Of a DNA stretch of 24,000 nucleotides, positions 1 through 24,000 are shown piece by piece. Source of the stretch: Aquirufa salirivi (GTDB lineage: Bacteria > Bacteroidota > Bacteroidia > Cytophagales > Spirosomataceae); contig NZ_JBEWZH010000006.1 in assembly GCF_045310485.1 (NCBI RefSeq), positions 38,785-62,784 of the forward strand, given 5' to 3'. The translations under genes and the position numbers were made by a program. Every line of letters begins with the position of its first letter. The stretch's first letter is position 1. The notes under the pieces are model-generated. The model saw only the letters and a list, made by a program, of their open reading frames with translations, was not told the origin of the DNA and did no database searches.

Positions 1-2
1 GG

Positions 3-3621: not shown

Positions 3622-3628
3622 CAACGTG

Positions 3629-3658: not shown

Positions 3659-3668
3659 CCATTGCCTT

Positions 3669-5075: not shown

Positions 5076-5076
5076 T

Positions 5077-5635: not shown

Positions 5636-5653
5636 ATTTTATCGTTCTTCGTC

Positions 5654-6814: not shown

Positions 6815-6837
6815 AATTGCATTTTTTTGGCTAAGTC

Positions 6838-6880
6838 TAGCCAACGCTGTCAAGGTTTGGAACCTTGCCAGCGTTAGCTA
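6838..6880. terminator. Long imperfect hairpin between the convergent sialidase and MATE genes (probable bidirectional terminator)
   Basis: 20-nt arms 6838-6857 and 6861-6880 pair at 18 of 20 positions around the loop TGG. TTT follows on the + strand. Confidence 0.45.
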
Positions 6881-6973
6881 TTTAGCTCAAGAAATTTCAT
6901 GGAAGGCTTTCCTTAGCCAAACGAATTAAAACTCAAAAAATGTATAGTAAGTTGAAGACTATCAAGTTCTTGA

Positions 6974-9655: not shown

Positions 9656-9664
9656 AAGGGTCAA

Positions 9665-10321: not shown

Positions 10322-10336
10322 AATGTTGTGTCAATC

Positions 10337-10714
10337 TTAATTACTAAATACCAATCGCATCCAAAGATGAGGAAAGGAAATAAGGCAAAAAACAAAGGCT
10401 GCCCAAATTGCCATGACTAAAACGGCACCAGCTGCGAAATCCTTTGCTTTTTTGGCCAAAGGATGATGTTCAGGTGCTACCATATTTGTGATATTTTCTA
10501 AGGCTGAATTAATCAATTCTGCCATCCAAACGCCCGCAATAGCTAAACTAATCCAAAGCCATTCAATGGCCATAAAGCCTAAGTTCATCCCTACGACTAT
10601 GACTAAGATTGTAGAAGCGAGGTGAATTTTAGCATTGTTTTCTTCCTTAATCAAGGTAATGATACCTGACCAAGCAATGGAAATACTGCGAAAAGCTTTG
10701 GCTATATTGAACAT
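10337..10714 (-). CDS. dgkA: Diacylglycerol/undecaprenol kinase family membrane protein
   Basis: 125 aa with three hydrophobic segments. DgkA-like motifs ELINSALENI and AKDFAAGAVL. Confidence 0.78.
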   Translation of the reverse strand: MFNIAKAFRSISIAWSGIITLIKEENNAKIHLASTILVIVVGMNLGFMAIEWLWISLAIAGVWMAELINSALENITNMVAPEHHPLAKKAKDFAAGAVLVMAIWAAFVFCLISFPHLWMRLVFSN

Positions 10715-10715
10715 A

Positions 10716-12146: not shown

Positions 12147-12190
12147 ATAAATAAATGGTCAAATGGCCCCCAATTGGGGCAAACTAGTCT

Positions 12191-12198
12191 CAAAATTA
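12191..12198 (-). promoter_or_regulatory. Candidate -7 box (TAATTTTG on the minus strand) for the asnS operon
   Basis: The reverse complement of 12191-12198 matches TAnnTTTG, 44 nt upstream of the asnS ATG. The palindrome CCCCAATTGGGG (12168-12179) would lie in the leader. Confidence 0.25.
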
Positions 12199-12271
12199 CG
12201 TACAAAAAACGGAATAATTTTATTTATTTATGAATTACAAGTATTTTTAAAAACAGGCCATCAAATCAGCG

Positions 12272-12279
12272 TATATTTG
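12272..12279 (+). promoter_or_regulatory. Candidate -7 box (TATATTTG) for rpoN
   Basis: Matches TAnnTTTG and ends 17 nt upstream of the rpoN ATG at 12297. Confidence 0.3.
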
Positions 12280-12296
12280 TTTAATAGATTATAGAT

Positions 12297-13736
12297 ATGC
12301 AGGGATTATCACTCAAAATTTCTCAGCAACAGCGCCTTTCTCCACAACAAATTCAGTTTGTTAAATTGCTTCAAATACCTACTGCAGAATTGGCAGCTAG
12401 GATCGAGGAGGAATTGGAGGAGAATCCGGCTTTGGAAGAAGGTGTAGAAATTCGGGACTCGGATGAATTCGATGAAAAGGAAAGAGAGACTGTCGAGGAT
12501 TTAGAGCGGGAGGAATTGGAGATTGGCGATTATTTACAAGATGATTATGCGGGCTATAAAATGGCTGGCGATTCTTATGATTTCAATGAGGAGTCAAAGG
12601 AAAGACCTATGGCTACCGCGGCTAGTGCAGAGGAATATTTGTTGATGCAAATAGGTTTTGTGTTAAAAGATGAGCGGGAAGAAATGATTGCCCATCAATT
12701 GATAGGTTCCCTAGAAGAGGATGGTTATTTGAGAAGGAATATTGAAAGTATTGTCAATGATTTAGCTTTCACCCAGGGATTTAATACCGATTTTGTGGAG
12801 GTTGAAAATATATTGAAAAAAATCCAGGCATTAGATCCAGCGGGGATTGGGGCGAGAGATTTGCAAGAATGTTTATCCATTCAATTGCATCGACGAGAGT
12901 CAGACCACCCTACTTGTTTATTGGCTATTCGTTTGATTGATGAGTACTTTGAGGAGTTTTCAAAAAAGCATTTTGTTCAGTTGCAGCAAAAATTAGGTAT
13001 AGATGAAAGTGAATTAAAAAAGGCTATTAACCTAATCAAGCGCCTAAACCCTAAACCAGGGGGGGCAGAAGGAGGAAATTTAGCGCCATATTTACAACCC
13101 GATTTTGTCGTGACCAATCAACATGGAAAATTGGATATTAAGTTGAATGGAAAAAATGCCCCTGAACTACGAGTTAGTAAATCATTCCAGGAGATGTTAC
13201 AAACCTATGATCAAGGAAATAAGCAGCAAAAAGAGATTAAAGAGGCTGTCACCTTTATCAAACATAAATTAGATGCCGCTTCTTGGTTTATACAAGCCAT
13301 TCAACAAAGGCAAGGGACATTGCTGAAAACGATGCATAGTATTGTGACTCAACAATACGATTTCTTTCTGACGGGAGATGATTCAAGTTTGAAGCCGATG
13401 AAGATGAAGGAAATAGCGGCATTGATTGAGATGGATGTTTCCACGGTTTCTAGGGTTGTTTCTGCGAAGTCGGTACAAACAGATTTTGGTATATACCCTT
13501 TAAAGTATTTCTTTTCTGAAGGAATTACTCATGAATCTGGGGAGGATGTTTCTACGAGAGAAGTGAAAAATATATTGAGGGATATCATTGAACAAGAACC
13601 TGCACATGAGCCTTATCCAGATGAAACCTTAGAATTACTTTTAGCGGAAAAGGGCTTTGTGGTCAAACGCCGTACCGTTGCTAAATACCGAGAGCAACTG
13701 GGTATACCGGTAGCGAGACTTAGAAAGAAATTATAA
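12297..13736 (+). CDS. rpoN: RNA polymerase sigma-54 factor
   Basis: Gln/Leu-rich region I (LKISQQQRLSPQQIQFVKLLQ), an acidic region II, and a C-terminal HTH plus RpoN box (RRTVAKYREQLGIP). Confidence 0.93.
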   Translation: MQGLSLKISQQQRLSPQQIQFVKLLQIPTAELAARIEEELEENPALEEGVEIRDSDEFDEKERETVEDLEREELEIGDYLQDDYAGYKMAGDSYDFNEESKERPMATAASAEEYLLMQIGFVLKDEREEMIAHQLIGSLEEDGYLRRNIESIVNDLAFTQGFNTDFVEVENILKKIQALDPAGIGARDLQECLSIQLHRRESDHPTCLLAIRLIDEYFEEFSKKHFVQLQQKLGIDESELKKAINLIKRLNPKPGGAEGGNLAPYLQPDFVVTNQHGKLDIKLNGKNAPELRVSKSFQEMLQTYDQGNKQQKEIKEAVTFIKHKLDAASWFIQAIQQRQGTLLKTMHSIVTQQYDFFLTGDDSSLKPMKMKEIAALIEMDVSTVSRVVSAKSVQTDFGIYPLKYFFSEGITHESGEDVSTREVKNILRDIIEQEPAHEPYPDETLELLLAEKGFVVKRRTVAKYREQLGIPVARLRKKL

Positions 13737-13784
13737 TTTGTAAATTATAATTTATAAATTTTTTAGTTTTCGATTTTAGTTATC

Positions 13785-14126
13785 CTACCTTTCTTTGAGA
13801 GTTTTTAATATTCTTGCAATAAGGTAATAGATAGATTTTGCTTCAGCAAATACAGTAGGCTCAACATGTAAATTGATTGATTCTAGCAATTCAAGCCAAT
13901 AAATGGTTTCATTTATTTCTTTTTGTGCAATACTAAGTTTATGAATAAAATCTGCTTTTGATTCAGCATGCTGAGCTTCTCGAACCATTGCTCCAACACT
14001 AGTACCAGACTTTAATAATTGATTTGTCAAAGTATATTCGCGATTTGATTCTTGAATTGCTTTGCAAACCGATATGATGGATTTAGCAAATTCAAATGTT
14101 TTAAATTTTAGGATATTGTTTTTCAT
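13785..14126 (-). CDS. Four-helix-bundle protein (23S rRNA intervening-sequence protein family)
   Basis: 113 aa, all-helical. Family-typical motifs are LTNQLLKSGTSVGAMVREAQHAESKADFIHKLSIAQKEINETIYWLELL. It is transcribed opposite to both neighbours. Confidence 0.75.
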   Translation of the reverse strand: MKNNILKFKTFEFAKSIISVCKAIQESNREYTLTNQLLKSGTSVGAMVREAQHAESKADFIHKLSIAQKEINETIYWLELLESINLHVEPTVFAEAKSIYYLIARILKTLKER

Positions 14127-14339: not shown

Positions 14340-15119
14340 ATGTCTTCTTACCACTTTCTCAGCCTTAGTCAATTGAATGGAGTTTGGACAATCCATTTAA
14401 AACGTCCAGAAGTGTACAATGCATTAAATGCAGGTTTGATTCATGAGATTCGAGATGTAGCTGAAAAAGCCAAGGCTTCCGAATCTGCTCGAGTTTTGGT
14501 CATTACAGGAGATGGAAAAGCATTTTGCTCTGGGGCCGATTTAAAGTCAGGAGCCAGTGATTCAGATTTAGGAGCGGTATTGCGTGCGACATATAATCCG
14601 ATGATTTTGGCATTAAGAGGATTGGATAAGCCGGTCATTGGGGCAATTAATGGTCCTGCAGCTGGAGCGGGATGTTCTTTGGCATTAGCCTGTGACTACA
14701 TAATAGCGAAGGAAGGAGCATATTTTGCGGAGTTATTTGTGCAGATAGGTTTGACTTTAGATGCGGGGAGTACAGCCTTTTTAATGCAGTCATTAGGTTA
14801 TCATAAGGCATTTGAGTTAGCTGCAACGGCAAAAAAAATCTCAGCCAATGAAGCAAAAGTATGGGGATTAGTGGCAGAAGTGGTTTCAGAAGAAAATTGG
14901 GAGAAACGGGTCCAGACTATTGGAGATGAATTTGCCCAACGACCGACCTTGGCCTTAGCCCTGATAAAAAGAGAATTACAAAGGGCTCACCATCAGGATT
15001 TAGCAACCGTTTTAGAAATGGAAGCAGAAGCACAGCGACAAGCCGGGTATTCCAAAGATTTCAAAGAAGGTGTTACTTCATTTCTTGAGAAACGTGCGCC
15101 TAAATTTGTAGGCAAGTGA
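14340..15119 (+). CDS. Enoyl-CoA hydratase/isomerase (crotonase superfamily)
   Basis: 259 aa. Crotonase oxyanion-hole motifs are GKAFCSGADLK and INGPAAGAGCSLALACD. Substrate specificity cannot be assigned. Confidence 0.85.
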   Translation: MSSYHFLSLSQLNGVWTIHLKRPEVYNALNAGLIHEIRDVAEKAKASESARVLVITGDGKAFCSGADLKSGASDSDLGAVLRATYNPMILALRGLDKPVIGAINGPAAGAGCSLALACDYIIAKEGAYFAELFVQIGLTLDAGSTAFLMQSLGYHKAFELAATAKKISANEAKVWGLVAEVVSEENWEKRVQTIGDEFAQRPTLALALIKRELQRAHHQDLATVLEMEAEAQRQAGYSKDFKEGVTSFLEKRAPKFVGK

Positions 15120-15385: not shown

Positions 15386-16579
15386 TCATTCTTTTTTAAT
15401 TAATCGTTTTAGTAACAAAAAACTAGAATTTAAAAAACCCGAGAATGAATAAGCATTTGGATAATGATCCATTCGTTTTAATGTTTTAAAATATTTTAGA
15501 TAGACTATTATATGTTTGAAATAAGCGAAATCTTTATCTTGAAATTGGGTTGTTAAATATAAATGTCTTAACGTTAAAGCTCTATTACTACCCCAGTAGG
15601 AGGCTTTTTCCCATTCCTTAACGATTAAATCAATTTTAGAGCAATCAAAGTTATCCAAGTAATTATCTAAAATGGGCGGTAATTTGTAATCTAAATAAGA
15701 TTTCAAGATGGATAAAGCATTTTTGAATGCTGTTGTTAATCTGTAATCATCAACTAGTGATATAACTAATTCCCAATTGATTTTTTTATCATATTGATAC
15801 ATGAATGCATGAAAGTCTTGAATGTGTCTTAGTCTAAACCAAGATTCTTTTCCTCCATGGTGTGCTAATAACATCCAAAATAAGCCTTCTGAATTAAGCT
15901 GTTGAGTTTCAATGCCATTAAATTTCAATTTTTCGGTTAAATCAAATACTCGATCTATTAATGGTTTTTTCTCTTGATACTTTTGATAAAAAAAGTGCTG
16001 AAATAAATCCCAATGAAAATCTAGATTTATGATTCCTTTTTGTAAATGAATTTCATTGTGTAAACTTTGATTGACAATTAACTCTTTTAAATCTTCAGGA
16101 AGAATATTTAGATGGCTAAGATTAGGTGAATTGATTCTGTAACCATCTTGAAGTAAAATTTCTAATCCTTGGATAAGATGTTTTTTTTCAATTAGAACAT
16201 CTAAATCTGAAGTAGTTCGTACTTGTTTGTTTTGATATATCCCTTGAATCAAGATATTTCCCTTTAATACCAATAAGGGAATCTGATGTTCTGAAAATAG
16301 TTTTAAAAGTCGAGTTGTCTCCGCGGCATATTGCAAATTTTTAACAACTTGCTGAGCCATAAATAATTTCACCTCAGTTCGGATGCTCTCAGCCATGAAT
16401 TTTTCCTTTCTTTCATAGGAAAATATAAGCGCTTGAATTCCGTGATAACGATACAATTTTGATAATCTACCCGTATCGTAGGGTAAATCAGTAAAAATAG
16501 GTGCAAATCCTTCCTGTTCAAATTGATTTGTGATTGCCTGGATAAGTATGTCTAATTCGGGGGAAAACTCTTTTTTCAT
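15386..16579 (-). CDS. Nucleotidyltransferase-family protein (PF14907-like), putative lasso-peptide tailoring enzyme
   Basis: About 397 aa. It shows the pattern seen in 'uncharacterised nucleotidyltransferase' proteins: LLVLKGNIL...RTTSDLDVLI...DFHWDL. The start is set to the ATG at 16579, which overlaps the ABC stop in TGATG. Family call is by recollection of the motif pattern. Confidence 0.6.
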   Translation of the reverse strand: MKKEFSPELDILIQAITNQFEQEGFAPIFTDLPYDTGRLSKLYRYHGIQALIFSYERKEKFMAESIRTEVKLFMAQQVVKNLQYAAETTRLLKLFSEHQIPLLVLKGNILIQGIYQNKQVRTTSDLDVLIEKKHLIQGLEILLQDGYRINSPNLSHLNILPEDLKELIVNQSLHNEIHLQKGIINLDFHWDLFQHFFYQKYQEKKPLIDRVFDLTEKLKFNGIETQQLNSEGLFWMLLAHHGGKESWFRLRHIQDFHAFMYQYDKKINWELVISLVDDYRLTTAFKNALSILKSYLDYKLPPILDNYLDNFDCSKIDLIVKEWEKASYWGSNRALTLRHLYLTTQFQDKDFAYFKHIIVYLKYFKTLKRMDHYPNAYSFSGFLNSSFLLLKRLIKKE

Positions 16580-18342
16580 CACACCAGTTGTTGGTCATAT
16601 AGTTGTTTGAATAGGCCATTCTTGTTTTTTAACTCATGAAAGCTTCCCTTTTCTACAATTTTGCCTTCATCCATGACATAGATATAATCAGCTAGTTTTA
16701 GGTTGTAAAGTCGATGTGTAATAATAATGGTCGCTCTATGAGCAGCTATTTTTTTAAAATTTTGAAATATGGTTGCTTCTGAAATGGCATCCAATGCACT
16801 AGTGGGTTCATCTAAGACAATGAGATGAGCTGGTCTATAAAAAGCTCTAGCGATGGCTAATTTCTGCCATTGGCCTCCACTGATCTGTTCGCCACCTGCA
16901 AAAATTTTCCCTAATCTCGTCTCATATGATTGTGGAAGTTGTTGGATGAATTCGTCAGCGTCCGCTAATCGTGCAGCTTCTTGGATTGCCTCCATATCGA
17001 TAGGCTGATCTAAATTGCCCATGGCAATAATTTCTTTGATTTGTAAAAAGTATTTTTCAAAATCTTGAAAGACAAATAGGCTGTTTTGCTTAAATTGGTC
17101 AGCATTTAATTCCTGATAGCGATGACCATTCCAAGTGATTTCACCTTGACTTGGACTATATAATCCAGCTAGTAGTTTGATTAAAGTCGTCTTTCCTGCT
17201 CCATTCATCCCTACAATAGCAATAGTTTGACCTATCTGACAGGTTAGATTAATCTGTTCTAATGTTTTTCGAGTTGATCCTGGATATTGGAAATCTACAT
17301 GCTTAATTTCTAGGCCTTGTCCTGTATTTTCCATTGGTATTGTTCCATGGATAGGTTTATCCCGATCCAATGTGAGGAATTGGTTAAAATCTTGTATGAA
17401 TCGACGCTGTTGGAATAACTGGAGTAATGAATTTAATAGATTTTTTAGGGTACTTTGAATTCTTTGAATACCCTGGATATATACGATGAATAAACTTATA
17501 CCAATGGATTGTGTAAAAGCCATTTGAGCTAGTTCGTACAGAATATAAAACAAGATGGACAATTCAAGTAGTTCTGTCAAAAAACCTAAACTGATTAACT
17601 TCATTTGAAGCGAATTCTTTTTAAGGAAAATGAAGGTTTTTATTTCCTTTAAACGACTTAGAAGATAAGTTCCAAAATTGAGTGTTCGCAATTCTTTGGC
17701 ATAAGCGCTGCCTGTCAGTAAATGTATTAAATAATAAGACTCTCTTTCTTTGCTAACTAATTGTTTATCAAGTCGATGTAAAGCAAAACCTGAATACCAT
17801 TTGATCATGCTTAATGGAGCAGCGACAAATAATATTAACCACGCATAAGTTTTGATAAGGGTAAAAAAATAGAACATTAGTACGGTAAAAGTCAACAATT
17901 GCGTCAAGAATGATTTGAAGTTTTGGTAAATCAAAGGCAGATTTTGTTGTGATTGTTGCTGCGCTATATGTAAGGAGTCTTGATATTGGGCTTCTTCGTA
18001 ATACGTATAGGGTATTGCGATAGCCTTGTTTAAAATTTTATAAACGATTTCATTCGTTATTTTTTGCTCTTGAATAAATGAAATGTAGTTATCTACGTTA
18101 GTTAATAATGATTGAAAAATTTGTAATACAATCAATAGTGCAATCCAAGTTAAAATAGAATTAAAACTAGTCTGAGAAAGGTGGTTAAAATGATCAAATA
18201 TGTTTTTAGTTACAAATAAAAGTGCCGTTGGAATCAAAGCTGAAATCACAGCTATTAGAAACTGGAATAGCGTATTCTTCTTATTTAATCCAAATAATAG
18301 CTTATAAACCAGTAAGAAATCTCGAATGATGTTGAATTTCAA
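16579..18342 (-). CDS. ABC transporter, fused permease/ATPase (lasso peptide exporter, D-type)
   Basis: 587 aa. The N-terminal TM domain is followed by Walker A GMNGAGKTT, signature ISGGQWQK, Walker B LIVLDEPTS and H-loop ITHRL. Only a TTG start (18342) is available; the first in-frame ATG is codon 156. Confidence 0.85.
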   Translation of the reverse strand: MKFNIIRDFLLVYKLLFGLNKKNTLFQFLIAVISALIPTALLFVTKNIFDHFNHLSQTSFNSILTWIALLIVLQIFQSLLTNVDNYISFIQEQKITNEIVYKILNKAIAIPYTYYEEAQYQDSLHIAQQQSQQNLPLIYQNFKSFLTQLLTFTVLMFYFFTLIKTYAWLILFVAAPLSMIKWYSGFALHRLDKQLVSKERESYYLIHLLTGSAYAKELRTLNFGTYLLSRLKEIKTFIFLKKNSLQMKLISLGFLTELLELSILFYILYELAQMAFTQSIGISLFIVYIQGIQRIQSTLKNLLNSLLQLFQQRRFIQDFNQFLTLDRDKPIHGTIPMENTGQGLEIKHVDFQYPGSTRKTLEQINLTCQIGQTIAIVGMNGAGKTTLIKLLAGLYSPSQGEITWNGHRYQELNADQFKQNSLFVFQDFEKYFLQIKEIIAMGNLDQPIDMEAIQEAARLADADEFIQQLPQSYETRLGKIFAGGEQISGGQWQKLAIARAFYRPAHLIVLDEPTSALDAISEATIFQNFKKIAAHRATIIITHRLYNLKLADYIYVMDEGKIVEKGSFHELKNKNGLFKQLYDQQLV

Positions 18343-18366
18343 TAGTGAACAGATTTGTTTGTTTTA

Positions 18367-18374
18367 CAAAGCTA
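18367..18374 (-). promoter_or_regulatory. Candidate -7 box (TAGCTTTG on the minus strand) for the ABC/nucleotidyltransferase operon
   Basis: The reverse complement matches TAnnTTTG, 24 nt upstream of the TTG start at 18342. Confidence 0.3.
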
Positions 18375-18437
18375 TCTTATGTCATTGATTTATCTACAAT
18401 CATGATAGATATTCATTCATATATTTGATATTATCAT

Positions 18438-18445
18438 TAGTTTTG
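18438..18445 (+). promoter_or_regulatory. Candidate -7 box (TAGTTTTG) for the kinase-sulfotransferase-B1-B2 operon
   Basis: Matches TAnnTTTG and ends 22 nt upstream of the ATG at 18468. A second match, TATATTTG, lies at 18420-18427. Confidence 0.3.
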
Positions 18446-18467
18446 TAGAATAAATTTAACCTGTTCC

Positions 18468-19385
18468 ATGTATAAATACGTTGCATTGGGAATGCAAATT
18501 CAATCTGAAATTGAAATTCCAGGCTTGTTTCCTTTTGACTTCCAAGAAAGTGGGGACACCGTTATTGTCAAAATAGGTACTGTACCAGAGACTCTTCAAA
18601 ATGAAATATTAGAAGTAAAGCCTTTTTCTTTCTTCAACGAGCGTGAGTTTATATTTCATATTCCAGAGGCAGCAAAATTTTATATTACGAATGGGAATAA
18701 AATACTAATAGAGCCATTAACGGATAATTTGGATGAAGTGTTTTTTTATCTATACACTGGTGTATTGGCTACTGTATTATTTCAAAAAAATATACTTCCT
18801 TTTCATGTTTCAGGTGTAGTTCTTAAAAACAACACAGTTTTGCTTTTTGCAGGACACCAGAGAGCAGGGAAGTCTTCTACTTCTATCATGCTTCAAAATA
18901 GAGGTTATTTGCCATTTACAGATGATACGGCTGTATTACAAGTTAAAAATGGACTTTGTTATGCAACTTCCTCATACCCGATTATTCGGGCAATGGAACG
19001 AACTTTAGAGAAGCAATCGGTCTATTCAGATGACGAAATAACGCCGAAAATTAAAGAAGGCTTTAAGTTTGGAATAAATTTTCATAAAAAGTTTACTCCT
19101 GAGCAGTTACCCGTTAGTGGTATCGTTTTTTTAAGTGAAGATGGGGATGAGGTGGAGATTTCGCCAATGAAATCAACAGAAGCCATTAAATTGTTAAAGT
19201 TTAATATTTACAGAAAACAGTGGGTCAATGGTATGAAAAAAGAACTTCTTGAATTTCAGACGATTTCACAAATTGCTCAGAGTAAATTACATTTTTTTTC
19301 AGTTAAGCGCCCTTGGGAATCCGATAGTTTTGAGATTTTAGCACAAGCCATAGAAGATCAAGTCATTCATCAAATTGGAAAATAA
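18468..19385 (+). CDS. HPr kinase-like (HprK-related) peptide kinase
   Basis: 305 aa. The HprK C-terminal-domain pattern is HVSGVVLKNNTVLLFAGHQRAGKSSTSIMLQNRGYLPFTDDTAVL, comprising a P-loop GxxxxGKS and a downstream DD. It is adjacent to lasso B1/B2 genes, as in paeninodin-type clusters. Confidence 0.72.
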   Translation: MYKYVALGMQIQSEIEIPGLFPFDFQESGDTVIVKIGTVPETLQNEILEVKPFSFFNEREFIFHIPEAAKFYITNGNKILIEPLTDNLDEVFFYLYTGVLATVLFQKNILPFHVSGVVLKNNTVLLFAGHQRAGKSSTSIMLQNRGYLPFTDDTAVLQVKNGLCYATSSYPIIRAMERTLEKQSVYSDDEITPKIKEGFKFGINFHKKFTPEQLPVSGIVFLSEDGDEVEISPMKSTEAIKLLKFNIYRKQWVNGMKKELLEFQTISQIAQSKLHFFSVKRPWESDSFEILAQAIEDQVIHQIGK

Positions 19386-20226
19386 AAAGAATATAGTTTG
19401 GCTTGCTTCTTATCCTAAATCTGGGAATACTTGGTTTAGGAGCTTTATTTCAGCACTTAGAAATAAAGGAGAAGTCGATATCAATGCTATTTCTACTGAA
19501 GGGATATTTTCTCAAAAAAGAGGGTTGGAAGAATGTTTGGATTTGGATGCAGATGAAATACCTGTGTCTAAAATGGATCAATTTAAGCGCATATCTTTTG
19601 TGCACCAATCAAATACTTCTGCCAAGAAGTGTTTTGTGAAAATCCATGATTTGTATTCCATGTCAAAAATTGACCATCAACCTATTGTACCAGAAGAGTC
19701 TACATTGGCTGCTATCTACTTTGTGAGAAATCCGCTGGATGTAACTATTTCAATGGCAAATCATAATGGACAAACCTTGGATGAGACCATTGCCAAAGTG
19801 GTGTGTAATGAACATGCAAATTTGGTTCGATCAGAAAAACATGCGCAAGATCAGTTTCAGCAATATTTAGGCACATGGAATATGCATGTGGAAAGTTGGA
19901 AAAAGGTCACAGCTTTTCCCGTAATTTTTATTCGATATGAAGACATGAAAAAGAATCCCCAAGATTCATTTTCACAAGCTCTGAAACAGATTGAATATGA
20001 GGCAACTGAAGAAGAAATACAATTAGCTTTAGAAGCTTCCCAATTTGAAAAATTAAAAAATCAAGAAGTTGAGTTTGGATTTAGAGAAAAACCAAAAGCC
20101 TGTAAGTCATTTTTTAATAAAGGAGAGGTTGGTCAATGGAAAGAGCAATTAAATCAAGTACAAATCAATAAAATAAGACAATTTAATGAACCTATGATGC
20201 GAGAATTCGGATATTGGGAAGAATAA
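19375..20226 (+). CDS. PAPS-dependent sulfotransferase (cytosolic SULT-like fold)
   Basis: 283 aa. It has a 5'-phosphosulfate-binding loop SYPKSGNTW, a RNPLDV...H segment and a 3'-phosphate-binding motif FNKGEVGQWKEQL. A TTG start at 19375 is forced, because the PSB loop begins at residue 12 and the first ATG is codon 67. It overlaps the kinase gene by 11 nt. Confidence 0.8.
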   Translation: MENKKNIVWLASYPKSGNTWFRSFISALRNKGEVDINAISTEGIFSQKRGLEECLDLDADEIPVSKMDQFKRISFVHQSNTSAKKCFVKIHDLYSMSKIDHQPIVPEESTLAAIYFVRNPLDVTISMANHNGQTLDETIAKVVCNEHANLVRSEKHAQDQFQQYLGTWNMHVESWKKVTAFPVIFIRYEDMKKNPQDSFSQALKQIEYEATEEEIQLALEASQFEKLKNQEVEFGFREKPKACKSFFNKGEVGQWKEQLNQVQINKIRQFNEPMMREFGYWEE

Positions 20227-20231
20227 TAAAT

Positions 20232-20522
20232 ATGGAAAATATGGAAAACATGACATACGTTTTTAATGAAGAAAGAGTATTATTAACCCAATTAGGAGAA
20301 GAAGGAGTTTTATATGATATTCAATCCAATGAATATTTTACCTTAAATGAAACCTTGTTTTATATCGTAGATGGGATTAAAAAGGGACTAACTTTGGTAG
20401 AAATCGGCGAAATATTAATGAGCAAATACGATATCGATGAGAATTTGTGTTATCAAGAAATAGCCAAAGCTATCCAACAATTGGTAGAAAAAAATATCCT
20501 ATTAGAACAAAATAATGCTTAG
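20232..20522 (+). CDS. PqqD-family RiPP recognition element (lasso B1)
   Basis: About 96 aa with the PqqD pattern: EEGVLYDIQSNEYFTLNETLFYIVDGIKKGLTLVEIGEILMSKYDIDEN...QQLVEKNILLE. The start is set to the ATG at 20232 (the track used TTG at 20214). Its end overlaps the B2 start by 8 nt. Confidence 0.72.
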   Translation: MENMENMTYVFNEERVLLTQLGEEGVLYDIQSNEYFTLNETLFYIVDGIKKGLTLVEIGEILMSKYDIDENLCYQEIAKAIQQLVEKNILLEQNNA

Positions 20523-20940
20523 GGTAATTAGTCTTTTTTTAAAATTAAGTTTTCGTAACCAGAGTCTTATTTTGGGGACAATCATCCTATCTGTTTATTG
20601 TTATTTTTTATTTAAAATAAAGCCGACCTGGATTAGATTTGGCCGGATTCACCAAGTTAAATTGGAAACGGGAAAAATTGATTGGAGACTAGTTAAGGAT
20701 ATTCGGGAGTCAATTCGATTAGTAAGTAAAAGATTACCTCTTCATTTAGTTTGTCGCCATGAAGCTTACATTGCTAAAATATGGTTGAATTATTATAAAA
20801 TCCCCTACAAGATTTATATTGGATTCAAATATGGGGATGATAAAAGCATTCTGGGACATGCTTGGACAGAAGTGCAAGGCAGACAAATCACGGGGTTTTG
20901 TGATCCCCAGGATTATGTGATTCAGGCTATATATACTTGA
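20515..20940 (+). CDS. Lasso peptide leader peptidase B2 (transglutaminase-like Cys protease)
   Basis: 141 aa. The candidate catalytic Cys is in LVCRHEAYIAKIWL, the His in GHAWTEV, and a downstream Asp in CDPQD. The size and motif order match split-B lasso proteases. Confidence 0.75.
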   Translation: MLRVISLFLKLSFRNQSLILGTIILSVYCYFLFKIKPTWIRFGRIHQVKLETGKIDWRLVKDIRESIRLVSKRLPLHLVCRHEAYIAKIWLNYYKIPYKIYIGFKYGDDKSILGHAWTEVQGRQITGFCDPQDYVIQAIYT

Positions 20941-20961
20941 AATAGGAGTTTAGAGATTGAA

Positions 20962-20986
20962 CATTGATTTCAATAATAAATCAATG
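20962..20986. terminator. Weak AT-rich hairpin between the convergent B2 gene and the 50-aa ORF
   Basis: 9-bp stem CATTGATTT / AAATCAATG with a 7-nt loop. There is no clear T-tract on either strand. Confidence 0.25.
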
Positions 20987-20991
20987 ATTCA

Positions 20992-21144
20992 TTAGTAACC
21001 CAACATATGATCAGAATCAAGTAAGAATTTGAGTGGATTCAAATCGATTATTTCTTCGGTATTCCACTTTTCTAATTTAGGACTTTCCCATTTTTTGAGA
21101 TCGGGAGAATTCGTGTCATCATTCAATAATACTTTCTTCTTCAT
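20992..21144 (-). CDS. Unannotated 50-aa ORF with a lasso-leader-like motif (candidate second precursor or leader-bearing peptide)
   Basis: Hand translation: MKKKVLLNDDTNSPDLKKWESPKLEKWNTEEIIDLNPLKFLLDSDHMLGY. ATG at 21144-21142 and TAA at 20994-20992. WESPKL fits the Y/WxxPxL RRE-recognition motif. The motif spacing is shared with the ORF at 23844-24000. It lies 67 nt downstream of the SET gene on the same strand. It is too short for the supplied ORF track. Confidence 0.4.
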   Translation of the reverse strand: MKKKVLLNDDTNSPDLKKWESPKLEKWNTEEIIDLNPLKFLLDSDHMLGY

Positions 21145-21211
21145 TTTTCAATTGTTAGAGCTACATGGGGAAATGAAATAATAAATTATCTAACTTCTAT
21201 ATAATGTACAT

Positions 21212-21712
21212 TTATTTGTATTTCAATGGACTTATTTTTTTCATTAGATTTCTGTAAAGCCAATAGTTTTCTCCATAAGAAACAAAAATTTCTTCATTTG
21301 GGGGGATATCATCTCTTGCAATAATGGTCATAGTTTCTAGACGAAAATCAAGCTTTTGTATCGTGTTGGGTTTATTAGCATGGTTGTATAATGAACCATT
21401 CCCCAACGCTAAATAAACTTTGTTTCCATGTGTATTACATACTTCGCACTTGCAACTTTGATTAGCCCAAATGTAATCTAACATGGTAGGTTCCGATAAA
21501 TAGAATGAGCGCCATTTTAAAGCCAATAGTCTGGCTTCTTCAATTAACTCCCCTTGTTTGATTAGTTCATTGGAAAAAACACCAAATCCATGAATTGAAG
21601 ATTGACTTAATCTAATTTTAGATGATATACCAGCTATATCATATTTAGGTTCAGAAATTTCACAAGGATTTAACACGGTAAATATTTTTTGTTTGAAGTA
21701 ATAAATATACAA
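21212..21712 (-). CDS. SET-domain protein (putative lysine N-methyltransferase)
   Basis: SET motifs appear in order: GFGVFS (GxG), NHANKPN (NHxxxPN) and EEIFVSYGENYW (ExxxxY). There is a Cys-rich insert, CKCEVC. No ATG start is available: the options are TTG at 21712 or GTG at 21676, and the first ATG is codon 77. It lies 34 nt downstream of the cyclase stop. Confidence 0.7.
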   Translation of the reverse strand: MYIYYFKQKIFTVLNPCEISEPKYDIAGISSKIRLSQSSIHGFGVFSNELIKQGELIEEARLLALKWRSFYLSEPTMLDYIWANQSCKCEVCNTHGNKVYLALGNGSLYNHANKPNTIQKLDFRLETMTIIARDDIPPNEEIFVSYGENYWLYRNLMKKISPLKYK

Positions 21713-21746
21713 AAAATGAACTTTCTTTATTCAATACAAAAATCGC

Positions 21747-23630
21747 CTAAACAAATTTGTTTGGGTGAGATTGGATAAATAGCGCACAACTTATTGACCT
21801 TGTTAGATAAATGGAGTTATTGTATGCATTTTTGTTTCTAGGATCTTTAATGATGCTAGCAAGGCTATCTTTCATTTTTTGAATATCCAGATAATAGGTA
21901 ATCGCCTTATTTTGATCGAAAGACTCTAATAATTGTTCAAACTCTTTTGCTTCATTTGCGATTCTAAGCGAAAGATCAGTAGCCTGTCTACCTTTCTTTT
22001 TTTGGTGAATTAAATCATCTAACAATCTACCTTTCATGGCTGTTTTTATTAACCACTTTGGTGTGTCATATCGGTAATAGTATTCGTTGGGAACTGATAG
22101 GCAAAATTCTACTAAATTTTTATCGGCACTCGGATCAAAGGTTTTGATATCAAAATAGTAGGAAAGGTCATGCCATACGGCTCCAATTTTACTGAATTGA
22201 GGATTAATAAATTGAATTTGTTTTTTTTCATTTGGAACTAATTGACGAAAATAGGGATCATGGCCAGATTCCAACATCCTTTTTTCTAAATCAATATCTT
22301 CAGCAAATTTGGAGTTTATGTGAGAATAAGAATCCCAAATTTTGGATTGATCAATACCCATGTATTTTTTAAATTTTTGGGACATGAGCCCAATGTAAGA
22401 GGATATTGTTAGCTTTTCATTGCTATCAAAGCCAATAAGTTGTTTAATTTTTTCTTTGACGGAATTTTTTTCTGTATAACCCGTCCAAGAAATAGTTGAG
22501 TTTCCAAATTGACCTATCAACATGGTGTCAATTCCCTCTTTTCCGGCATTTCGATAAATTTCATAGATCCAAAAAAGATTTCCTGCTGCATGCAAAGGGC
22601 TATGATGCAGATCAGTCATCTCTTTGAGATTTTGAACAATGGAAACCTGCTCACTCCGAATTAATTGTAAATCTACATTACCTAAAAATTGAGCAGTTGG
22701 TATGGTTAGGTATGATTCATTGGTGGCAGTTAGTGGATTAAATAAATCAGAAGTATCCTCTTTTGGAATGGATGTAAATGCTGTTAAAGACTTTCCTTCT
22801 TTTTTTAAGATTTCAGATGCTACCGTGGTGATGGTACTGGAATCAAATCCTGAACTTAATTGGCTTCCGATTTTATTTGCTCCTTGTATTCTATTTCTTA
22901 CCGACTGTTCCAATTTTGCATTAAAGCGAGTCACATATTCCATTTCAGTATTCAGCTGTAGTACAGGAGTGTTTTCAGCTATCCAATATCTTTTGAACTC
23001 AGTTTTGCCATTAATAATTTTTAAGTAATGCGCAGGAAGTAAAAAATGAATGTCTTCAAAGGCTGTTTCATCATTTAATCTATCCCAAACTGTCAAAATG
23101 CCAGCTATATAGCTTTCGTTAATTTTTAGATGGCTTTTGTCAAAATCAAGAAGTCCTTTAAGTAAAGAAGAGAAAGCTATATAATCATGTCCTTTTCTAT
23201 AATAGATCGTACCAATTCCAAATGGATCTCTGGCAAGGAATAATTCTTTAGAATTACCATTCCAAATAACTAAAGTCCATTCACCGTCAATTTTTTTTAC
23301 AAAATCATCTCCTAGCAATAAATATAATTTTAGGAGAAGTATGTTGTTAGGAATAGACTCATCTATTTTCATTGACAAAAGGGTAAATAAGTCCTTTCGG
23401 TTGTCAATTCGACCAGTGGAAATAATCTGGCAATTATTTTCTGAGTATAGTAATTCTTGAGCTTGAAATTCTGTATGGAGAGATCTGGTTTGTACACCAA
23501 TGTGACTACCATGGTCTACTGAATCTGATATTAGGCTAGGGGCAAATTCACTTAAGGAATTTTGTATGATGGGAAATAGATCAGAATTAGTATCTGGGTC
23601 AAATGATACTAAACCGTACAAAATATTCAT
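21747..23630 (-). CDS. Lasso peptide macrolactam synthetase (asparagine synthetase B-like, C protein)
   Basis: 627 aa. It has an AsnB-like two-domain layout but the N-terminus MNILYG lacks the Cys2 glutaminase nucleophile. It carries a PP-loop variant, SSGFDSS. It is clustered with B1/B2/ABC genes. Confidence 0.85.
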   Translation of the reverse strand: MNILYGLVSFDPDTNSDLFPIIQNSLSEFAPSLISDSVDHGSHIGVQTRSLHTEFQAQELLYSENNCQIISTGRIDNRKDLFTLLSMKIDESIPNNILLLKLYLLLGDDFVKKIDGEWTLVIWNGNSKELFLARDPFGIGTIYYRKGHDYIAFSSLLKGLLDFDKSHLKINESYIAGILTVWDRLNDETAFEDIHFLLPAHYLKIINGKTEFKRYWIAENTPVLQLNTEMEYVTRFNAKLEQSVRNRIQGANKIGSQLSSGFDSSTITTVASEILKKEGKSLTAFTSIPKEDTSDLFNPLTATNESYLTIPTAQFLGNVDLQLIRSEQVSIVQNLKEMTDLHHSPLHAAGNLFWIYEIYRNAGKEGIDTMLIGQFGNSTISWTGYTEKNSVKEKIKQLIGFDSNEKLTISSYIGLMSQKFKKYMGIDQSKIWDSYSHINSKFAEDIDLEKRMLESGHDPYFRQLVPNEKKQIQFINPQFSKIGAVWHDLSYYFDIKTFDPSADKNLVEFCLSVPNEYYYRYDTPKWLIKTAMKGRLLDDLIHQKKKGRQATDLSLRIANEAKEFEQLLESFDQNKAITYYLDIQKMKDSLASIIKDPRNKNAYNNSIYLTRSISCALFIQSHPNKFV

Positions 23631-23707
23631 TGTGGAAATAGGTTATGGATAAAAAATATCACGTTTGTGTTTGCATGATTCAATACTTGTATCTAGGCAT
23701 ATTTAGC

Positions 23708-23742
23708 AACAATTTACAAGTATTTAATACTTCTAAATTGTT
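23708..23742. promoter_or_regulatory. 35-nt near-perfect palindrome upstream of the cyclase gene
   Basis: AACAATTTAcAAGTATT-T-AATACTTcTAAATTGTT: 16 of 17 arm positions are complementary, centred on 23725. It lies between the stop of the edge ORF (23844) and the cyclase ATG (23630). Confidence 0.4.
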
Positions 23743-23843
23743 TATATTTAATATAATTGAGTACAGATTTGATGTTCTTATGAATGAAACTAATACTATT
23801 TAACTCGATTCAAATGGAGCTAATGCGGGTTAAAAATCCTTTT

Positions 23844-24000
23844 TTATTGGTTATATGTTTTCACGCCACCGTCTACACCAACACCATATTTTAAGCCCAA
23901 ATTGACATATTCCCAAATGATGATTTGAGGGTCTATCCAATTCTTTTTTTCATAGGACAATTGAGAGTCTATTTTATTTGACTGTAGGGTAAAATGTTCA
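23844..24000 (-). CDS. Small or partial ORF ending in a lasso-compatible core (best precursor-peptide candidate); the frame is open to the window edge
   Basis: Hand translation from the window edge: EHFTLQSNKIDSQLSYEKKNWIDPQIIIWEYVNLGLKYGVGVDGGVKTYNQ*. TAA at 23846-23844. No in-frame ATG is visible. An in-frame TTG at 23960-23958 would give a 38-aa peptide. WIDPQI fits the Y/WxxPx(L/I) leader motif, and the core GLKYGVGVDGGVKTYNQ has Gly1 and Asp9. Confidence 0.4.
   Translation of the reverse strand, partial: EHFTLQSNKIDSQLSYEKKNWIDPQIIIWEYVNLGLKYGVGVDGGVKTYNQ

What the first reader, a model, noticed from the sequence alone, without database searches (positions are those of the whole stretch)
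23844..24000. Edge ORF ends in a canonical-looking lasso core (Gly1...Asp9) but has no visible ATG; a TTG start or an A7 homopolymer frameshift may apply
The minus-strand frame reads ...SYEKKNWIDPQIIIWEYVNL|GLKYGVGVDGGVKTYNQ*. The C-terminal 17 residues fit lasso rules: Gly at position 1, an Asp at position 9 for a 9-membered macrolactam, an 8-residue tail, and bulky Lys13/Tyr15 as possible plugs. WIDPQI matches the Y/WxxPx(L/I) leader motif bound by RRE/B1 proteins, 8 residues before the proposed cleavage site. Thr at -2 is absent (Asn instead). Start options are as follows. (a) The in-frame TTG at 23960-23958 gives a 38-aa precursor; at least two other cluster genes (ABC exporter, sulfotransferase) are forced to use TTG. 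(b) An ATG at 23953-23951 is followed by a run of 7 A and is out of frame by one. An 8-A run would give MKKKNWIDPQ..., mirroring the MKKK start of the 50-aa ORF at 21144. This would imply a sequencing error or slippage-dependent expression. (c) The ORF is simply the C-terminus of a larger protein starting beyond 24000. The core offers acceptors for each tailoring enzyme (Tyr4/Tyr15, Lys3/Lys13, Thr14), but that link is inference only.
Basis: partly seen in the sequence, partly recalled or inferred. Interest (0 to 1): 0.78.

Follow-up and report, generated by a model that had tools for sequence, protein, structure and literature searches.

The report
Truncated lasso-peptide precursor gene, one of many
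The open frame at the window edge is the last 51 codons of an ordinary ATG-started 54-codon gene for a lasso-peptide precursor. It is the copy nearest the cyclase in a tandem array of ten or more sister genes in the freshwater bacterium Aquirufa salirivi. This is a new variant of a known peptide class, and no odd start codon or frameshift is involved.

Summary
The minus-strand ORF at 23844-24000 is codons 4-54 of a 54-codon gene, and its ATG lies 8 nt beyond the window. The window is from Aquirufa salirivi (Bacteroidota). That genome's annotation lists exactly this protein (MFL0162564.1) next to the lasso cyclase.

The TTG is internal Leu17; the A. ecclesiirivi orthologue has TTA there. The A7 run stays in frame. 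Neither a TTG start nor a frameshift is needed.

The peptide is a credible lasso precursor:
- It is the cyclase-proximal member of a tandem array of paralogous 47-60-aa genes: at least 10 in this genome and 13-14 in sister genomes.
- All copies share invariant W24, P27, W32 and D46.
- The array sits beside B1, B2, cyclase, ABC exporter, HprK-like kinase, sulfotransferase, nucleotidyltransferase and a SET methyltransferase.
Lys50 and Tyr52 are conserved across the family.

The Gly1/9-ring register is the least likely. Insertions in paralogues would force 10-11-membered rings. A cut after Leu39 (Lys1-Asp7) or after Gly38 (Leu1-Asp8, Leu at -2) fits better.

This is a new variant of the kinase-associated, WxxP-leader lasso peptides. 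No product has been demonstrated.

The parts
23844..24000 (-). Precursor gene, truncated by the window edge. It covers the last base of codon 3, codons 4-54 and the stop (TAA 23846-23844) of a 54-codon gene (MFL0162564.1/WP_406751408.1). The ATG lies 8 nt beyond base 24000.
   Evidence: sequence and frame; identical 54-aa protein from A. salirivi, accession adjacent to the cyclase; DNA alignment to the L001/L004 orthologues shows the ATG; family HMM, E = 4.5e-24.
23922..23939 (-). Leader recognition motif W24-I25-D26-P27-Q28-I29 (WxxPxI), the presumed B1/RRE binding site. The second invariant Trp, W32, is at 23913-23915.
   Evidence: W24, P27 and W32 are invariant in alignments A4/A5. The second Trp sits at +8 in 97 of 97 unique family tails. 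A WxxP motif is typical of kinase-associated, paeninodin-like leaders (PMC13381572).
23958..23960 (-). The TTG proposed as a start codon. It is internal Leu17.
   Evidence: It is TTA in the L001 orthologue. The upstream codons are conserved as coding and all family members start at an ATG further upstream.
23871..23873 (-). Asp46 codon (GAC), the predicted macrolactam acceptor.
   Evidence: Invariant in A4/A5. The W24-to-Asp distance is 22 residues in 80 of 97 tails, 23 in 14 and 24 in 3. Outgroup precursors next to homologous cyclases have the same 22-residue distance.
23847..23897 (-). Core region. The tail G47-G48-V49-K50-T51-Y52-N53-Q54 carries the family-conserved Lys50 (23859-23861) and Tyr52 (23853-23855).
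   Evidence: Register analysis. Residues 32-54 show only synonymous changes among three orthologues, 5 sites against 0 nonsynonymous.
23631..23843 (-). 213-nt spacer between the precursor and the cyclase. It holds an AT-rich perfect hairpin/palindrome at 23709-23741.
   Evidence: spacer highly conserved among three close strains; local stem present; whole-region z-score -1.29, not significant. Function unknown.
21747..23630 (-). Lasso cyclase (C), Asn-synthase-like, 627 aa.
   Evidence: Pfam Asn_synthase/GATase_7. NCBIfam lasso isopeptide cyclase NF033535, E = 5e-66, below that model's cut-off. Exact match to MFL0162563.1.
21212..21712 (-). SET-domain protein, a putative lysine methyltransferase.
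   Evidence: Pfam SET, E = 7e-12. Best solved relative is the PBCV-1 vSET H3K27 methyltransferase 1n3j, E = 3e-12. Present in all four Aquirufa clusters and in none of 34 outgroup loci.
20992..21144 (-). 50-aa second-type precursor-like gene. Its leader is homologous (KKWESPKLEKW), but its C-terminal part differs (LNPLKFLLDSDHMLGY).
   Evidence: weak family HMM hit, E = 0.014; conserved in every Aquirufa locus; annotated as MFL0162561.1.
20515..20940 (+). B2 leader peptidase (transglutaminase-like).
   Evidence: Pfam Transglut_core3. NCBIfam lasso_biosyn_B2 at 37.2 bits, above the cut-off of 33.
20214..20522 (+). B1 / PqqD-type RiPP recognition element.
   Evidence: Pfam PqqD, E = 5e-11. NCBIfam lasso PqqD chaperone models score below their cut-offs.
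19375..20226 (+). Sulfotransferase. In relatives an APS kinase sits at the far end of the array, outside the window.
   Evidence: Pfam Sulfotransfer_1, E = 4e-29. APS kinase seen in L001/L004/L007/L008.
18468..19385 (+). HprK-related kinase.
   Evidence: A profile of 9 homologues from lasso loci hits HPr kinase structures 1jb1/2qmh (E = 3.5e-6), 3tqf and 1ko7 over the P-loop region. TIGR04352 HprK_rel_A, E = 1e-3.
16579..18342 (-). ABC exporter (D).
   Evidence: Pfam ABC_tran / ABC_membrane.
15386..16582 (-). NTP_transf_5 nucleotidyltransferase.
   Evidence: Pfam PF14907, E = 1e-40. Absent from the A. beregesia and A. nivalisilvae loci.

Best explanation
The edge ORF is the 3' part of a 54-codon, ATG-initiated gene of Aquirufa salirivi (MFL0162564.1). 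It encodes a precursor of a kinase-associated, WxxP-leader lasso peptide.

The gene is the cyclase-proximal member of a tandem array of at least 10 paralogous precursor genes. The array starts just beyond base 24000 and continues, in relatives, to an APS-kinase gene.

Inferred mechanism:
1. The B1 RRE (20214-20522) binds the leader through W24-x-x-P27-x-I29.
2. The B2 protease (20515-20940) removes the leader.
3. The cyclase (21747-23630) activates the side chain of Asp46 and joins it to the new N-terminus, trapping the tail G47-Q54. The conserved Lys50 and Tyr52 would serve as plugs and/or modification sites.
4. The ABC transporter exports the product.
5. The HprK-like kinase, the sulfotransferase, the nucleotidyltransferase and the SET methyltransferase decorate it at sites not yet known.

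- after Leu39: core KYGVGVDGGVKTYNQ, 7-membered ring, about 45%;
- after Gly38: core LKYGVGVDGGVKTYNQ, 8-membered ring with Leu at -2, about 40%;

Shown here: gene identity and start, family membership, the invariant residues and the gene neighbourhood. Inferred: every biochemical step, the cleavage register, the threaded topology and the targets of the tailoring enzymes.
For: Identity and start:
- The identical 54-aa protein P0027 covers all 51 window codons.
- Exact matches of the window's cyclase, 50-aa ORF, B2 and sulfotransferase to A. salirivi proteins MFL0162563/561/560/558 put P0027 (MFL0162564) directly next to the cyclase.
- The DNA alignment with two orthologous loci shows ATG GAA AA|T GAA CAT..., the bar marking the window edge.

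Array:
- Eight of the accessions MFL0162566-573 on the same contig were looked up and are paralogues.
- L001, L004 and L008 carry 13-14 intact copies and L007 carries 7, plus decayed fragments, all upstream of the cyclase.

Family:
- M1, W24, P27, W32 and D46 are invariant.
- A profile search of 1.84 billion representative proteins found 54 hits at E <= 1e-3, nearly all 35-80-aa peptides of the same architecture.

Selection: among three orthologues, residues 32-54 carry 5 synonymous and 0 nonsynonymous changes, while residues 4-31 carry 8 nonsynonymous sites.

Enzymes: C, B1, B2, ABC, sulfotransferase, NTP_transf_5 and SET; HprK-like kinase.

Homology of logic: precursors beside homologous cyclases in about 20 outgroup genomes read W/YxxPx(I/L), with Thr at -2, an 8-membered x1-D8 ring and a short tail. 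In most of those read, the W-to-D distance is the same 22 residues.

Register:
- Only 7-9 are used for known lasso peptides (PMC12214591).
- Position 1 is A/G/S/T in 63 of 97 under the 7-ring register.
- Position -2 is I/L/M in 93 of 97 under the 8-ring register, matching the experimentally validated Ile(-2) in kinase-type lasso precursors (PMC10368454).
Against: - No product has been observed for any Aquirufa cluster, and no paper mentions Aquirufa together with lasso peptides.
- Thr(-2), otherwise near-universal and functionally important, is absent in every register.
- The NCBIfam paeninodin-family precursor model does not recognise these peptides, although it scores paeninodin itself at E = 1e-15.
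- Under the 7-ring register this peptide would start with Lys, which is unusual, and position -2 (E/G/K) would be poorly conserved. Under the 8-ring register three family members would need 10-membered rings, and position 1 would be N/L/F.
- Most kinase-associated relatives end in Ser, the known phospho-acceptor. This peptide ends in Gln, so the kinase target is unclear.
- The cores are fairly conserved (xxGxG(A/V)DGGxKxY) rather than hypervariable. That is atypical of a combinatorial RiPP library and could point to another role.
Confidence: 0.8

Rival explanations
1. One reading: a 38-aa precursor started at the in-frame TTG (23960-23958), or expression that depends on slippage in the A7 run, yielding a Gly1-Asp9 17-mer lasso.
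For: The TTG is in frame, and the G...D spacing of 9 is legal for this one peptide. Thirteen of 45 Aquirufa paralogues have Gly at that column.
Against: - An ATG-started 54-aa protein is annotated and is identical over the window.
- The TTG is TTA in the L001 orthologue, and the A-run is broken in L001 without any frame change.
- All 38 aligned paralogues begin at a Met 18-26 residues upstream of W24.
- At the Gly column most paralogues have Glu (59 of 97). Seventeen of 97 would need 10- or 11-membered rings, including close subfamily members such as NLGLKYGKAGGVD.
Confidence: 0.08
2. The peptide is leader-processed and decorated (phosphorylated, sulfated or methylated) but stays linear. It would be analogous to the linear polyphosphorylated peptides that share kinase, NTP-transferase and RRE logic with paeninodin-type lasso clusters. 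The cyclase would act on only some array members, or on the 50-aa type.
For: LPP clusters show that WxxP/YxxP leaders with HprK kinase and NTP transferase can make non-lasso products (PMC13381572). The Aquirufa peptides lack Thr(-2) and a C-terminal Ser. Two precursor types share a single B1.
Against: - The Asp and its distance from the leader motif are invariant, exactly as in outgroup precursors with canonical Thr(-2) and 8-rings.
- The array lies directly upstream of, and on the same strand as, the cyclase in four species.
- There is no second RRE and no signal-peptidase-type leader protease in the cluster.
Confidence: 0.08
3. The gene is a decaying or unused paralogue left by duplication in a birth-and-death array, and is not a productive precursor.
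For: The arrays contain obvious remnants: frameshifted, N-terminally truncated or internally deleted copies, for example L001 6885-7013, 7107-7217 and 8925-9020.
Against: - This copy is intact and positionally conserved next to the cyclase in A. salirivi, in two A. ecclesiirivi strains and (same subfamily) in A. beregesia.
- Its last 23 codons show only synonymous change.
Confidence: 0.04
4. The ORF is the C-terminus of a much larger protein that starts well beyond base 24000.
For: The frame is open to the window edge.
Against: All homologues are 35-80 aa. The orthologous DNA places the ATG 8 nt beyond the edge, with non-coding, AT-rich sequence upstream.
Confidence: 0.01

Closest known systems
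Paeninodin-type (phosphorylated, kinase-associated) lasso peptides: paeninodin, pseudomycoidin and the Sphingobium SyanA type
   Same: Split B1/B2, cyclase and ABC exporter. An HprK-related kinase and an NTP_transf_5 nucleotidyltransferase are present, and a sulfotransferase as in some clusters (review PMC8498205). The leader uses WxxP rather than YxxP, as in paeninodin-like precursors (PMC13381572).
   Different: - No hit to the NCBIfam paeninodin-family precursor model.
- No Thr(-2) and no C-terminal Ser acceptor.
- Host phylum is Bacteroidota.
- 10-14 precursor genes instead of 1-3.
- An extra SET-domain gene and a linked APS kinase.
- Much shorter cores (15-17 aa, against 23 aa for paeninodin as recalled from memory).
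BsfA-type Ile/Val(-2) lasso precursors (Bradymonas sediminis; Duan et al. 2023, PMC10368454)
   Same: A kinase-containing lasso cluster whose leader lacks Thr(-2) and uses an aliphatic residue instead. In the 8-ring register the Aquirufa family has I/L/M at -2 in 93 of 97 members.
   Different: Bsf leaders keep Y(-17)/P(-14)/L(-12) and have Gly1-Asp8 with Ser3 as the phospho-site. Here the spacing is W(-15)/P(-12)/I(-10) in that register, position 1 would be Leu or Asn, and there is no Ser3.
Precursors beside the nearest outgroup cyclases found here (Cyanobium/Synechococcus, Opitutaceae, Geobacter, Acidobacteriota, Niabella, Bacteroidales; 25-32% identical cyclases)
   Same: In most of those read, the same W-to-Asp distance of 22 residues. 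Short tails and Gly after the Asp. Kinase, sulfotransferase and NTase often nearby.
   Different: They have Thr(-2) and mostly a C-terminal Ser. They have one to three precursor genes, usually downstream of the cyclase. They lack the second invariant Trp, the conserved Lys-x-Tyr and the SET gene.
Xanthomonin-type 7-membered-ring and sungsanpin-type 15-mer lasso peptides (recalled from memory, not tested)
   Same: Core size of 14-16 aa. Gly-rich small rings like those the 7- or 8-ring registers would give here.
   Different: Unrelated leaders and enzymes. No tailoring genes. Single or few precursors.
Multi-precursor RiPP systems (prochlorosin-like lanthipeptide libraries; lasso clusters with 2-4 precursors)
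   Same: One enzyme set sits next to many precursor genes with a shared leader motif. It is known that lasso clusters can encode several precursors (PMC13381572).
   Different: The copy number here (at least 10-14, plus remnants) is far above the 2-4 I recall for characterised lasso clusters. The cores are only moderately variable, keeping xxGxGxDGGxKxY.

Membership tests
Lasso peptide precursor (class II type, split-B cluster) | Small gene adjacent to a lasso cyclase (Asn-synthase homologue), a PqqD-like RRE (B1) and a transglutaminase-like protease (B2) | tested here: met
   Pfam and NCBIfam hits for C, B1 and B2 within 3.3 kb. The same arrangement occurs in four Aquirufa species.
Lasso peptide precursor (class II type, split-B cluster) | Leader carries the [Y/W]xxPx[L/I/V] RRE-binding motif | tested here: met
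   W24-I-D-P27-Q-I29. W and P are invariant in 38 paralogues and 27 database members.
Lasso peptide precursor (class II type, split-B cluster) | Thr at the penultimate leader position (-2) | tested here: not met
   In the three possible registers, -2 is Asn36, Leu37 or Gly38. Thr is essentially absent from these columns family-wide. An Ile(-2) exception is documented (PMC10368454).
Lasso peptide precursor (class II type, split-B cluster) | Asp/Glu at core position 7, 8 or 9, with position 1 usually a small residue | tested here: inconclusive
   Asp46 is invariant. The cleavage site cannot be fixed from sequence. The candidates are Lys40-Asp46 (7), Leu39-Asp46 (8) and Gly38-Asp46 (9). Family indels favour 7 or 8.
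Lasso peptide precursor (class II type, split-B cluster) | Mature product is an N-terminal macrolactam with a threaded tail | not testable with these tools
   Needs MS/MS, NMR, or protease and heat stability tests on the product.
Paeninodin family lasso peptide (NCBIfam NF033524) | Match to the family HMM above its cut-off (27 bits) | tested here: not met
   No hit at E <= 10 for P0027 or five paralogues. The paeninodin control scored 57 bits. UniRef nevertheless labels paralogue P0038 'Paeninodin family lasso peptide'.
Paeninodin-type (phosphorylated) lasso clusters | HprK-related kinase, often with an NTP_transf_5 nucleotidyltransferase, in the cluster | tested here: met
   The profile of the 305-aa protein family hits HPr kinase structures at E = 3.5e-6. 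PF14907, E = 1e-40.
Paeninodin-type (phosphorylated) lasso clusters | C-terminal Ser of the core as the phosphorylation site | tested here: not met
   The peptide ends ...KTYNQ. Most Aquirufa array members do not end in Ser, whereas most outgroup precursors do.
Ile/Val(-2) kinase-type lasso precursors (Bsf type) | Aliphatic residue at -2 that is required for cleavage | tested here: inconclusive
   True only in the 8-ring register (Leu37; I/L/M in 93 of 97 family members). Needs a cleavage assay.
Ile/Val(-2) kinase-type lasso precursors (Bsf type) | Gly1-Asp8 core with Ser3 as the phospho-acceptor; Y(-17)/P(-14)/L(-12) spacing | tested here: not met
   There is no Ser at position 3 in any register. 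The motif lies at -14, -15 or -16, not -17.

The most novel reading that the evidence does not exclude
The Aquirufa locus is a natural multi-product lasso factory. A single B1/B2/cyclase set matures 10-14 paralogous precursors, plus a second precursor type. It recognises leaders without Thr(-2) and tolerates ring sizes of 7-9. It then decorates the conserved Lys(D+4)/Tyr(D+6) pair by SET-catalysed lysine methylation and PAPS-dependent O-sulfation. These would be the first methyl-lysine or sulfated lasso peptides. The enzymes (cyclase only 52-56% identical between species, flanking genes 85-95%) would be co-evolving rapidly with the precursor repertoire.
Probability: 0.2. Interest if true: 0.75.

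Novelty: new variant of a known kind. Interest (0 to 1): 0.5.

Why it matters
As a single gene, this is an ordinary annotation fix: a truncated ORF, not an exotic start. The context is what would interest RiPP researchers.

- It is a Bacteroidota lasso cluster whose precursor family is missed by the curated precursor model.
- The family lacks the canonical Thr(-2) and the C-terminal Ser of its kinase-associated relatives.
- It is amplified to 10-14 tandem copies showing birth-and-death turnover.
- It is linked to a SET-domain methyltransferase, a sulfotransferase and an APS kinase. None of these has a known role in lasso biosynthesis.

If the peptides are made, the system offers a natural test of three things: how B1/B2/C enzymes pick a cleavage site without Thr(-2); how far one cyclase tolerates different ring sizes; and what the unexplained sulfotransferase of paeninodin-type clusters does. 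It would also provide about a hundred related short cores for engineering.

Tried and rejected
- Exact-sequence look-ups of the window cyclase, P0027 and P0040 in the contig index found nothing. The A. salirivi DNA beyond base 24000 could therefore not be read directly. The start was established from the identical annotated protein and from orthologous DNA instead.
- A broad 18-sequence cyclase alignment was too divergent for the locus scan. A 9-sequence alignment worked.
- A. salirivi itself is not in the species-representative genome set.
- NCBIfam gave no family for the precursors, the 50-aa ORF, the SET protein, the NTase or the sulfotransferase.
- An AlphaFold model of the 305-aa kinase from a single sequence was useless (pLDDT 31), so no fold search was run. 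A profile-versus-PDB search settled its identity.
- The sigma-70 promoter and terminator scan was at background level, and no terminator followed the gene. Bacteroidota promoters are not covered by that scan. A regex for the TAnnTTTG -7 motif upstream of the L001 array genes found nothing consistent.
- Rfam found nothing in 20900-24000. The precursor-cyclase spacer folds no better than shuffles (z = -1.29).
- I tested whether the sulfotransferase tracks a Tyr in the tail. Outgroup clusters with a sulfotransferase (L014, L029, L036) have tails without Tyr, so a Tyr-sulfation link is not supported by comparison.
- Key subscription papers (Tietz 2017, Zhu 2016) were not available. Statements about them rest on reviews or on my memory.
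- Literature searches for Aquirufa plus lasso, and for lasso plus SET domain, found nothing relevant.
Full report
OBSERVATION. On the minus strand the window ends in an open frame reading EHFTLQSNKIDSQLSYEKKNWIDPQIIIWEYVNLGLKYGVGVDGGVKTYNQ*, with its stop at 23846-23844. The frame has no stop up to base 23999, so the gene is cut by the window edge.

WHERE THE GENE STARTS. A search with the 51 residues found three proteins of 54-55 aa. One of them, P0027 (MENEHFTLQS...), is 100% identical over all 51 residues and comes from Aquirufa salirivi. Exact look-ups show that the window's cyclase, 50-aa ORF, B2 and sulfotransferase are A. salirivi proteins MFL0162563, -561, -560 and -558 on one 263-kb contig. 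P0027 is MFL0162564, the next gene after the cyclase. The organism is a member of Cytophagales in the Bacteroidota.

Aligning the window end with the orthologous DNA of two A. ecclesiirivi strains places the ATG 8 nt beyond base 24000: ATG GAA AA|T GAA CAT .... The proposed TTG start is internal Leu17, and it is TTA in orthologue L001. The A7 run reads TAT GAT AAA AAG in L001 with the frame unchanged. All 38 aligned paralogues begin with a Met 18-26 residues upstream of the leader Trp. Start options (a) and (b) are therefore refuted. Option (c) holds only in the sense that three codons lie outside the window.

SURROUNDINGS. The window holds a complete lasso cluster:
- nucleotidyltransferase PF14907 (15386-16582, minus strand);
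- ABC exporter (16579-18342, minus strand);
- a 305-aa protein (18468-19385, plus strand);
- sulfotransferase (19375-20226, plus strand);
- PqqD-type B1 (20214-20522, plus strand);
- transglutaminase-like B2 (20515-20940, plus strand);
- a 50-aa ORF (20992-21144, minus strand);
- a SET-domain protein (21212-21712, minus strand);
- the Asn-synthase-like cyclase (21747-23630, minus strand).

A profile of the 305-aa protein and eight homologues from other lasso loci hits HPr kinase structures over the P-loop region at E = 3.5e-6. The closest solved relative of the SET protein is the minimal viral H3K27 methyltransferase vSET. Bases 1-14000 are housekeeping genes.

THE MAIN SURPRISE: AN ARRAY. In A. 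ecclesiirivi (L001/L006, L004), A. beregesia (L007) and A. nivalisilvae (L008), the region upstream of the cyclase is filled with small genes that are all paralogues of the edge ORF. L001, L004 and L008 have 13-14 intact copies and L007 has 7. There are also frameshifted, truncated or internally deleted remnants. The arrays are bounded by an APS-kinase gene, then bestrophin and AraC genes. In the window's own genome, eight of the accessions MFL0162566-573 were looked up and are paralogues, so at least ten such genes sit just beyond base 24000. A profile search of 1.84 billion representative proteins gave 54 hits at E <= 1e-3. Nearly all are 35-80-aa peptides with the same layout. Named members are all Aquirufa.

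FAMILY ANATOMY. The invariant residues, in the numbering of the 54-aa protein, are M1, W24, P27, W32 and D46. The pattern is (K/R)xW(V/I)xP(E/Q)(I/L)xxWxxx(N)(I/L)(E/G)x-xxGxG(A/V)-D-G-G-x-(K/Q)-x-(Y/S)-x1-4.

In 97 unique sequences:
- the second Trp is always 8 residues after the first;
- the W24-to-Asp distance is 22 in 80, 23 in 14 and 24 in 3;
- D+1 is Gly/Ala in 94;
- D+4 is Lys/Gln/Arg in 78;
- D+6 is Tyr in 74 and Ser in 11.

Among the three orthologues of the window gene, residues 32-54 differ only by five synonymous changes. Residues 4-31 carry eight nonsynonymous sites. The C-terminal part is thus under purifying selection, as expected for a functional core plus proximal leader.

HOMOLOGY WITH ACCEPTED-LOOKING PRECURSORS. 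Next to cyclases 25-32% identical to the window's lie short genes reading W/YxxPx(I/L)-x8-Tx|x1...D8-G.... The hosts include Cyanobium, Synechococcus, Opitutaceae, Geobacter, Acidobacteriota, Anaerolineales, Deinococcales, Niabella and a Bacteroidales MAG. Most of these peptides end in Ser. They have the canonical Thr(-2) and an 8-membered ring. In most of those read, the W-to-Asp distance is 22, exactly as in Aquirufa. Predicted first residues there include A, G, S, T, L, V, Q and N. The Aquirufa HMM reaches several of them weakly, for example L032 at E = 2e-5. This ties the Aquirufa family to the kinase-associated lasso precursors, whose leaders characteristically use WxxP (PMC13381572) and whose clusters carry an HprK kinase, an NTP transferase and sometimes a sulfotransferase (PMC8498205).

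WHERE THE LEADER IS CUT. Three registers are possible.
This column is Glu in 59 of 97 family members. The indel-bearing members would have 10-membered (14) and 11-membered (3) rings. Only rings of 7-9 are used for known lasso peptides (PMC12214591). The motif would sit at W(-14), outside the range seen in relatives. I put this at about 10%.
- H8 (cut after Gly38, core LKYGVGVD...). This keeps the geometry of the outgroups: W(-15), an 8-ring, and the Thr(-2) position occupied by I/L/M in 93 of 97. Ile(-2) has been validated experimentally in a kinase-type lasso system (PMC10368454). However, three members would need 10-membered rings, and position 1 would be N/L/F. About 40%.
- H7 (cut after Leu39, core KYGVGVD...). 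This gives rings of 7, 8 and 9 for all 97 and puts A/G/S/T at position 1 in 63 of 97. It coincides with the onset of sequence variability. However, it gives Lys1 for this peptide and a poorly conserved -2. About 45%.

Sequence alone cannot decide between H7 and H8. The expected masses are given for an MS test.

MECHANISM (inferred). B1 binds W24/P27/I29. B2 removes the leader. The cyclase joins Asp46 to the new N-terminus around the tail GGVKTYNQ. The ABC transporter exports the product.

The conserved Lys50 and Tyr52 are the best candidates for steric plugs and/or tailoring sites. The SET protein occurs only where the Lys is conserved, but that is a single lineage, so the correlation is weak. 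A Tyr-sulfotransferase link is not supported by outgroups, where sulfotransferase-bearing clusters have Tyr-less tails. The kinase target is unclear, because the usual C-terminal Ser is missing.

COMPARISON AND NOVELTY. The gene works like, and is related to, the paeninodin-type kinase-associated lasso precursors. It nevertheless fails the curated family HMM, lacks Thr(-2) and the C-terminal Ser, and belongs to a much larger precursor array with an extra SET gene. No paper in the library links Aquirufa or SET domains to lasso peptides. That lasso clusters can have several precursors is known. I therefore rate it a new variant of a known kind, of moderate interest.

LIMITS.
- No expression or product data exist.
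- The A. salirivi DNA beyond the window could not be fetched.
- The cleavage register, the threading and all tailoring assignments are inference.
- The copy-number comparison with characterised lasso clusters (2-4 precursors) rests on my memory.

Noticed in passing
window 20992-21144 (-); also L007 11960-14171: The 50-aa ORF between SET and B2 has a leader homologous to the array peptides (KKWESPKLEKWNTEEI, with both Trp and the Pro aligned). Its C-terminal part is unrelated (LNPLKFLLDSDHMLGY). It is conserved in all Aquirufa loci. A. beregesia has about five further peptides of this second type downstream of its cyclase, and these end in Ser like classical kinase-type precursors. It may be a second substrate class for the same B1; its ring register is unclear, since the conserved acidic residue lies 11 residues after the aligned cut.
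   Followed up: partly
window 21212-21712 (-): A minimal SET-domain protein (best solved match is PBCV-1 vSET, E = 3e-12) sits between the cyclase and the 50-aa gene. It is in every Aquirufa cluster and in none of 34 outgroup lasso loci. No paper in the library links SET domains to lasso peptides.
   Followed up: partly
window 15386-23630 versus L007/L008: Between Aquirufa species the biosynthetic genes diverge much faster than their flanks. Against A. beregesia (L007): cyclase 53%, B1 56%, B2 65% and sulfotransferase 64% identity, compared with ABC 85%, enoyl-CoA hydratase 92%, AraC 90% and bestrophin 95%. A. nivalisilvae (L008) shows the same trend more weakly (cyclase 52%, B1/B2 77%, sulfotransferase 85%). 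This is consistent with rapid co-evolution with the precursor repertoire, or with allele replacement.
   Followed up: no
L001 4024-10165; L004 5478-11300: The precursor arrays show birth-and-death turnover. There are intact copies 79-99 nt apart, a 42-aa copy with the WxxP motif deleted, frameshifted and N-terminally truncated remnants, and a 47-aa fragment of the APS kinase (L001 5092-5235) duplicated into the array together with its downstream sequence.
   Followed up: partly
L007 and L008 (A. beregesia, A. nivalisilvae): No homologue of the NTP_transf_5 nucleotidyltransferase was found in either locus. In L007 the exporter is followed directly by the conserved enoyl-CoA hydratase flank. This tailoring gene therefore appears dispensable or variable within the genus.
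   Followed up: partly
window 23709-23741: A perfect AT-rich hairpin/palindrome (ACAATTTAGAAGTATTAAATACTTGTAAATTGT) lies in the 213-nt precursor-cyclase spacer, which is about 95% conserved among three close strains. It could be an attenuator or an operator. The region as a whole folds no better than shuffles (z = -1.29).
   Followed up: partly
P0038 (A. salirivi MFL0162571.1, outside the window): UniRef names this paralogue 'Paeninodin family lasso peptide', while NCBI calls it hypothetical. The NCBIfam paeninodin-family HMM gives no hit to it here, so the database labels are inconsistent.
   Followed up: yes
window 1-14126: The rest of the window is housekeeping: 2-oxoglutarate dehydrogenase E1/E2/E3, MscL, a BNR-repeat protein, a MatE transporter, an EPSP-synthase-family enzyme, DUF4290, a class II tRNA synthetase, sigma-54 and a 23S-rRNA-IVP-type four-helix protein. 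The lasso cluster is thus a chromosomal island between the enoyl-CoA hydratase gene (14340-15119) and, beyond the window, the APS kinase, bestrophin and AraC genes.
   Followed up: no
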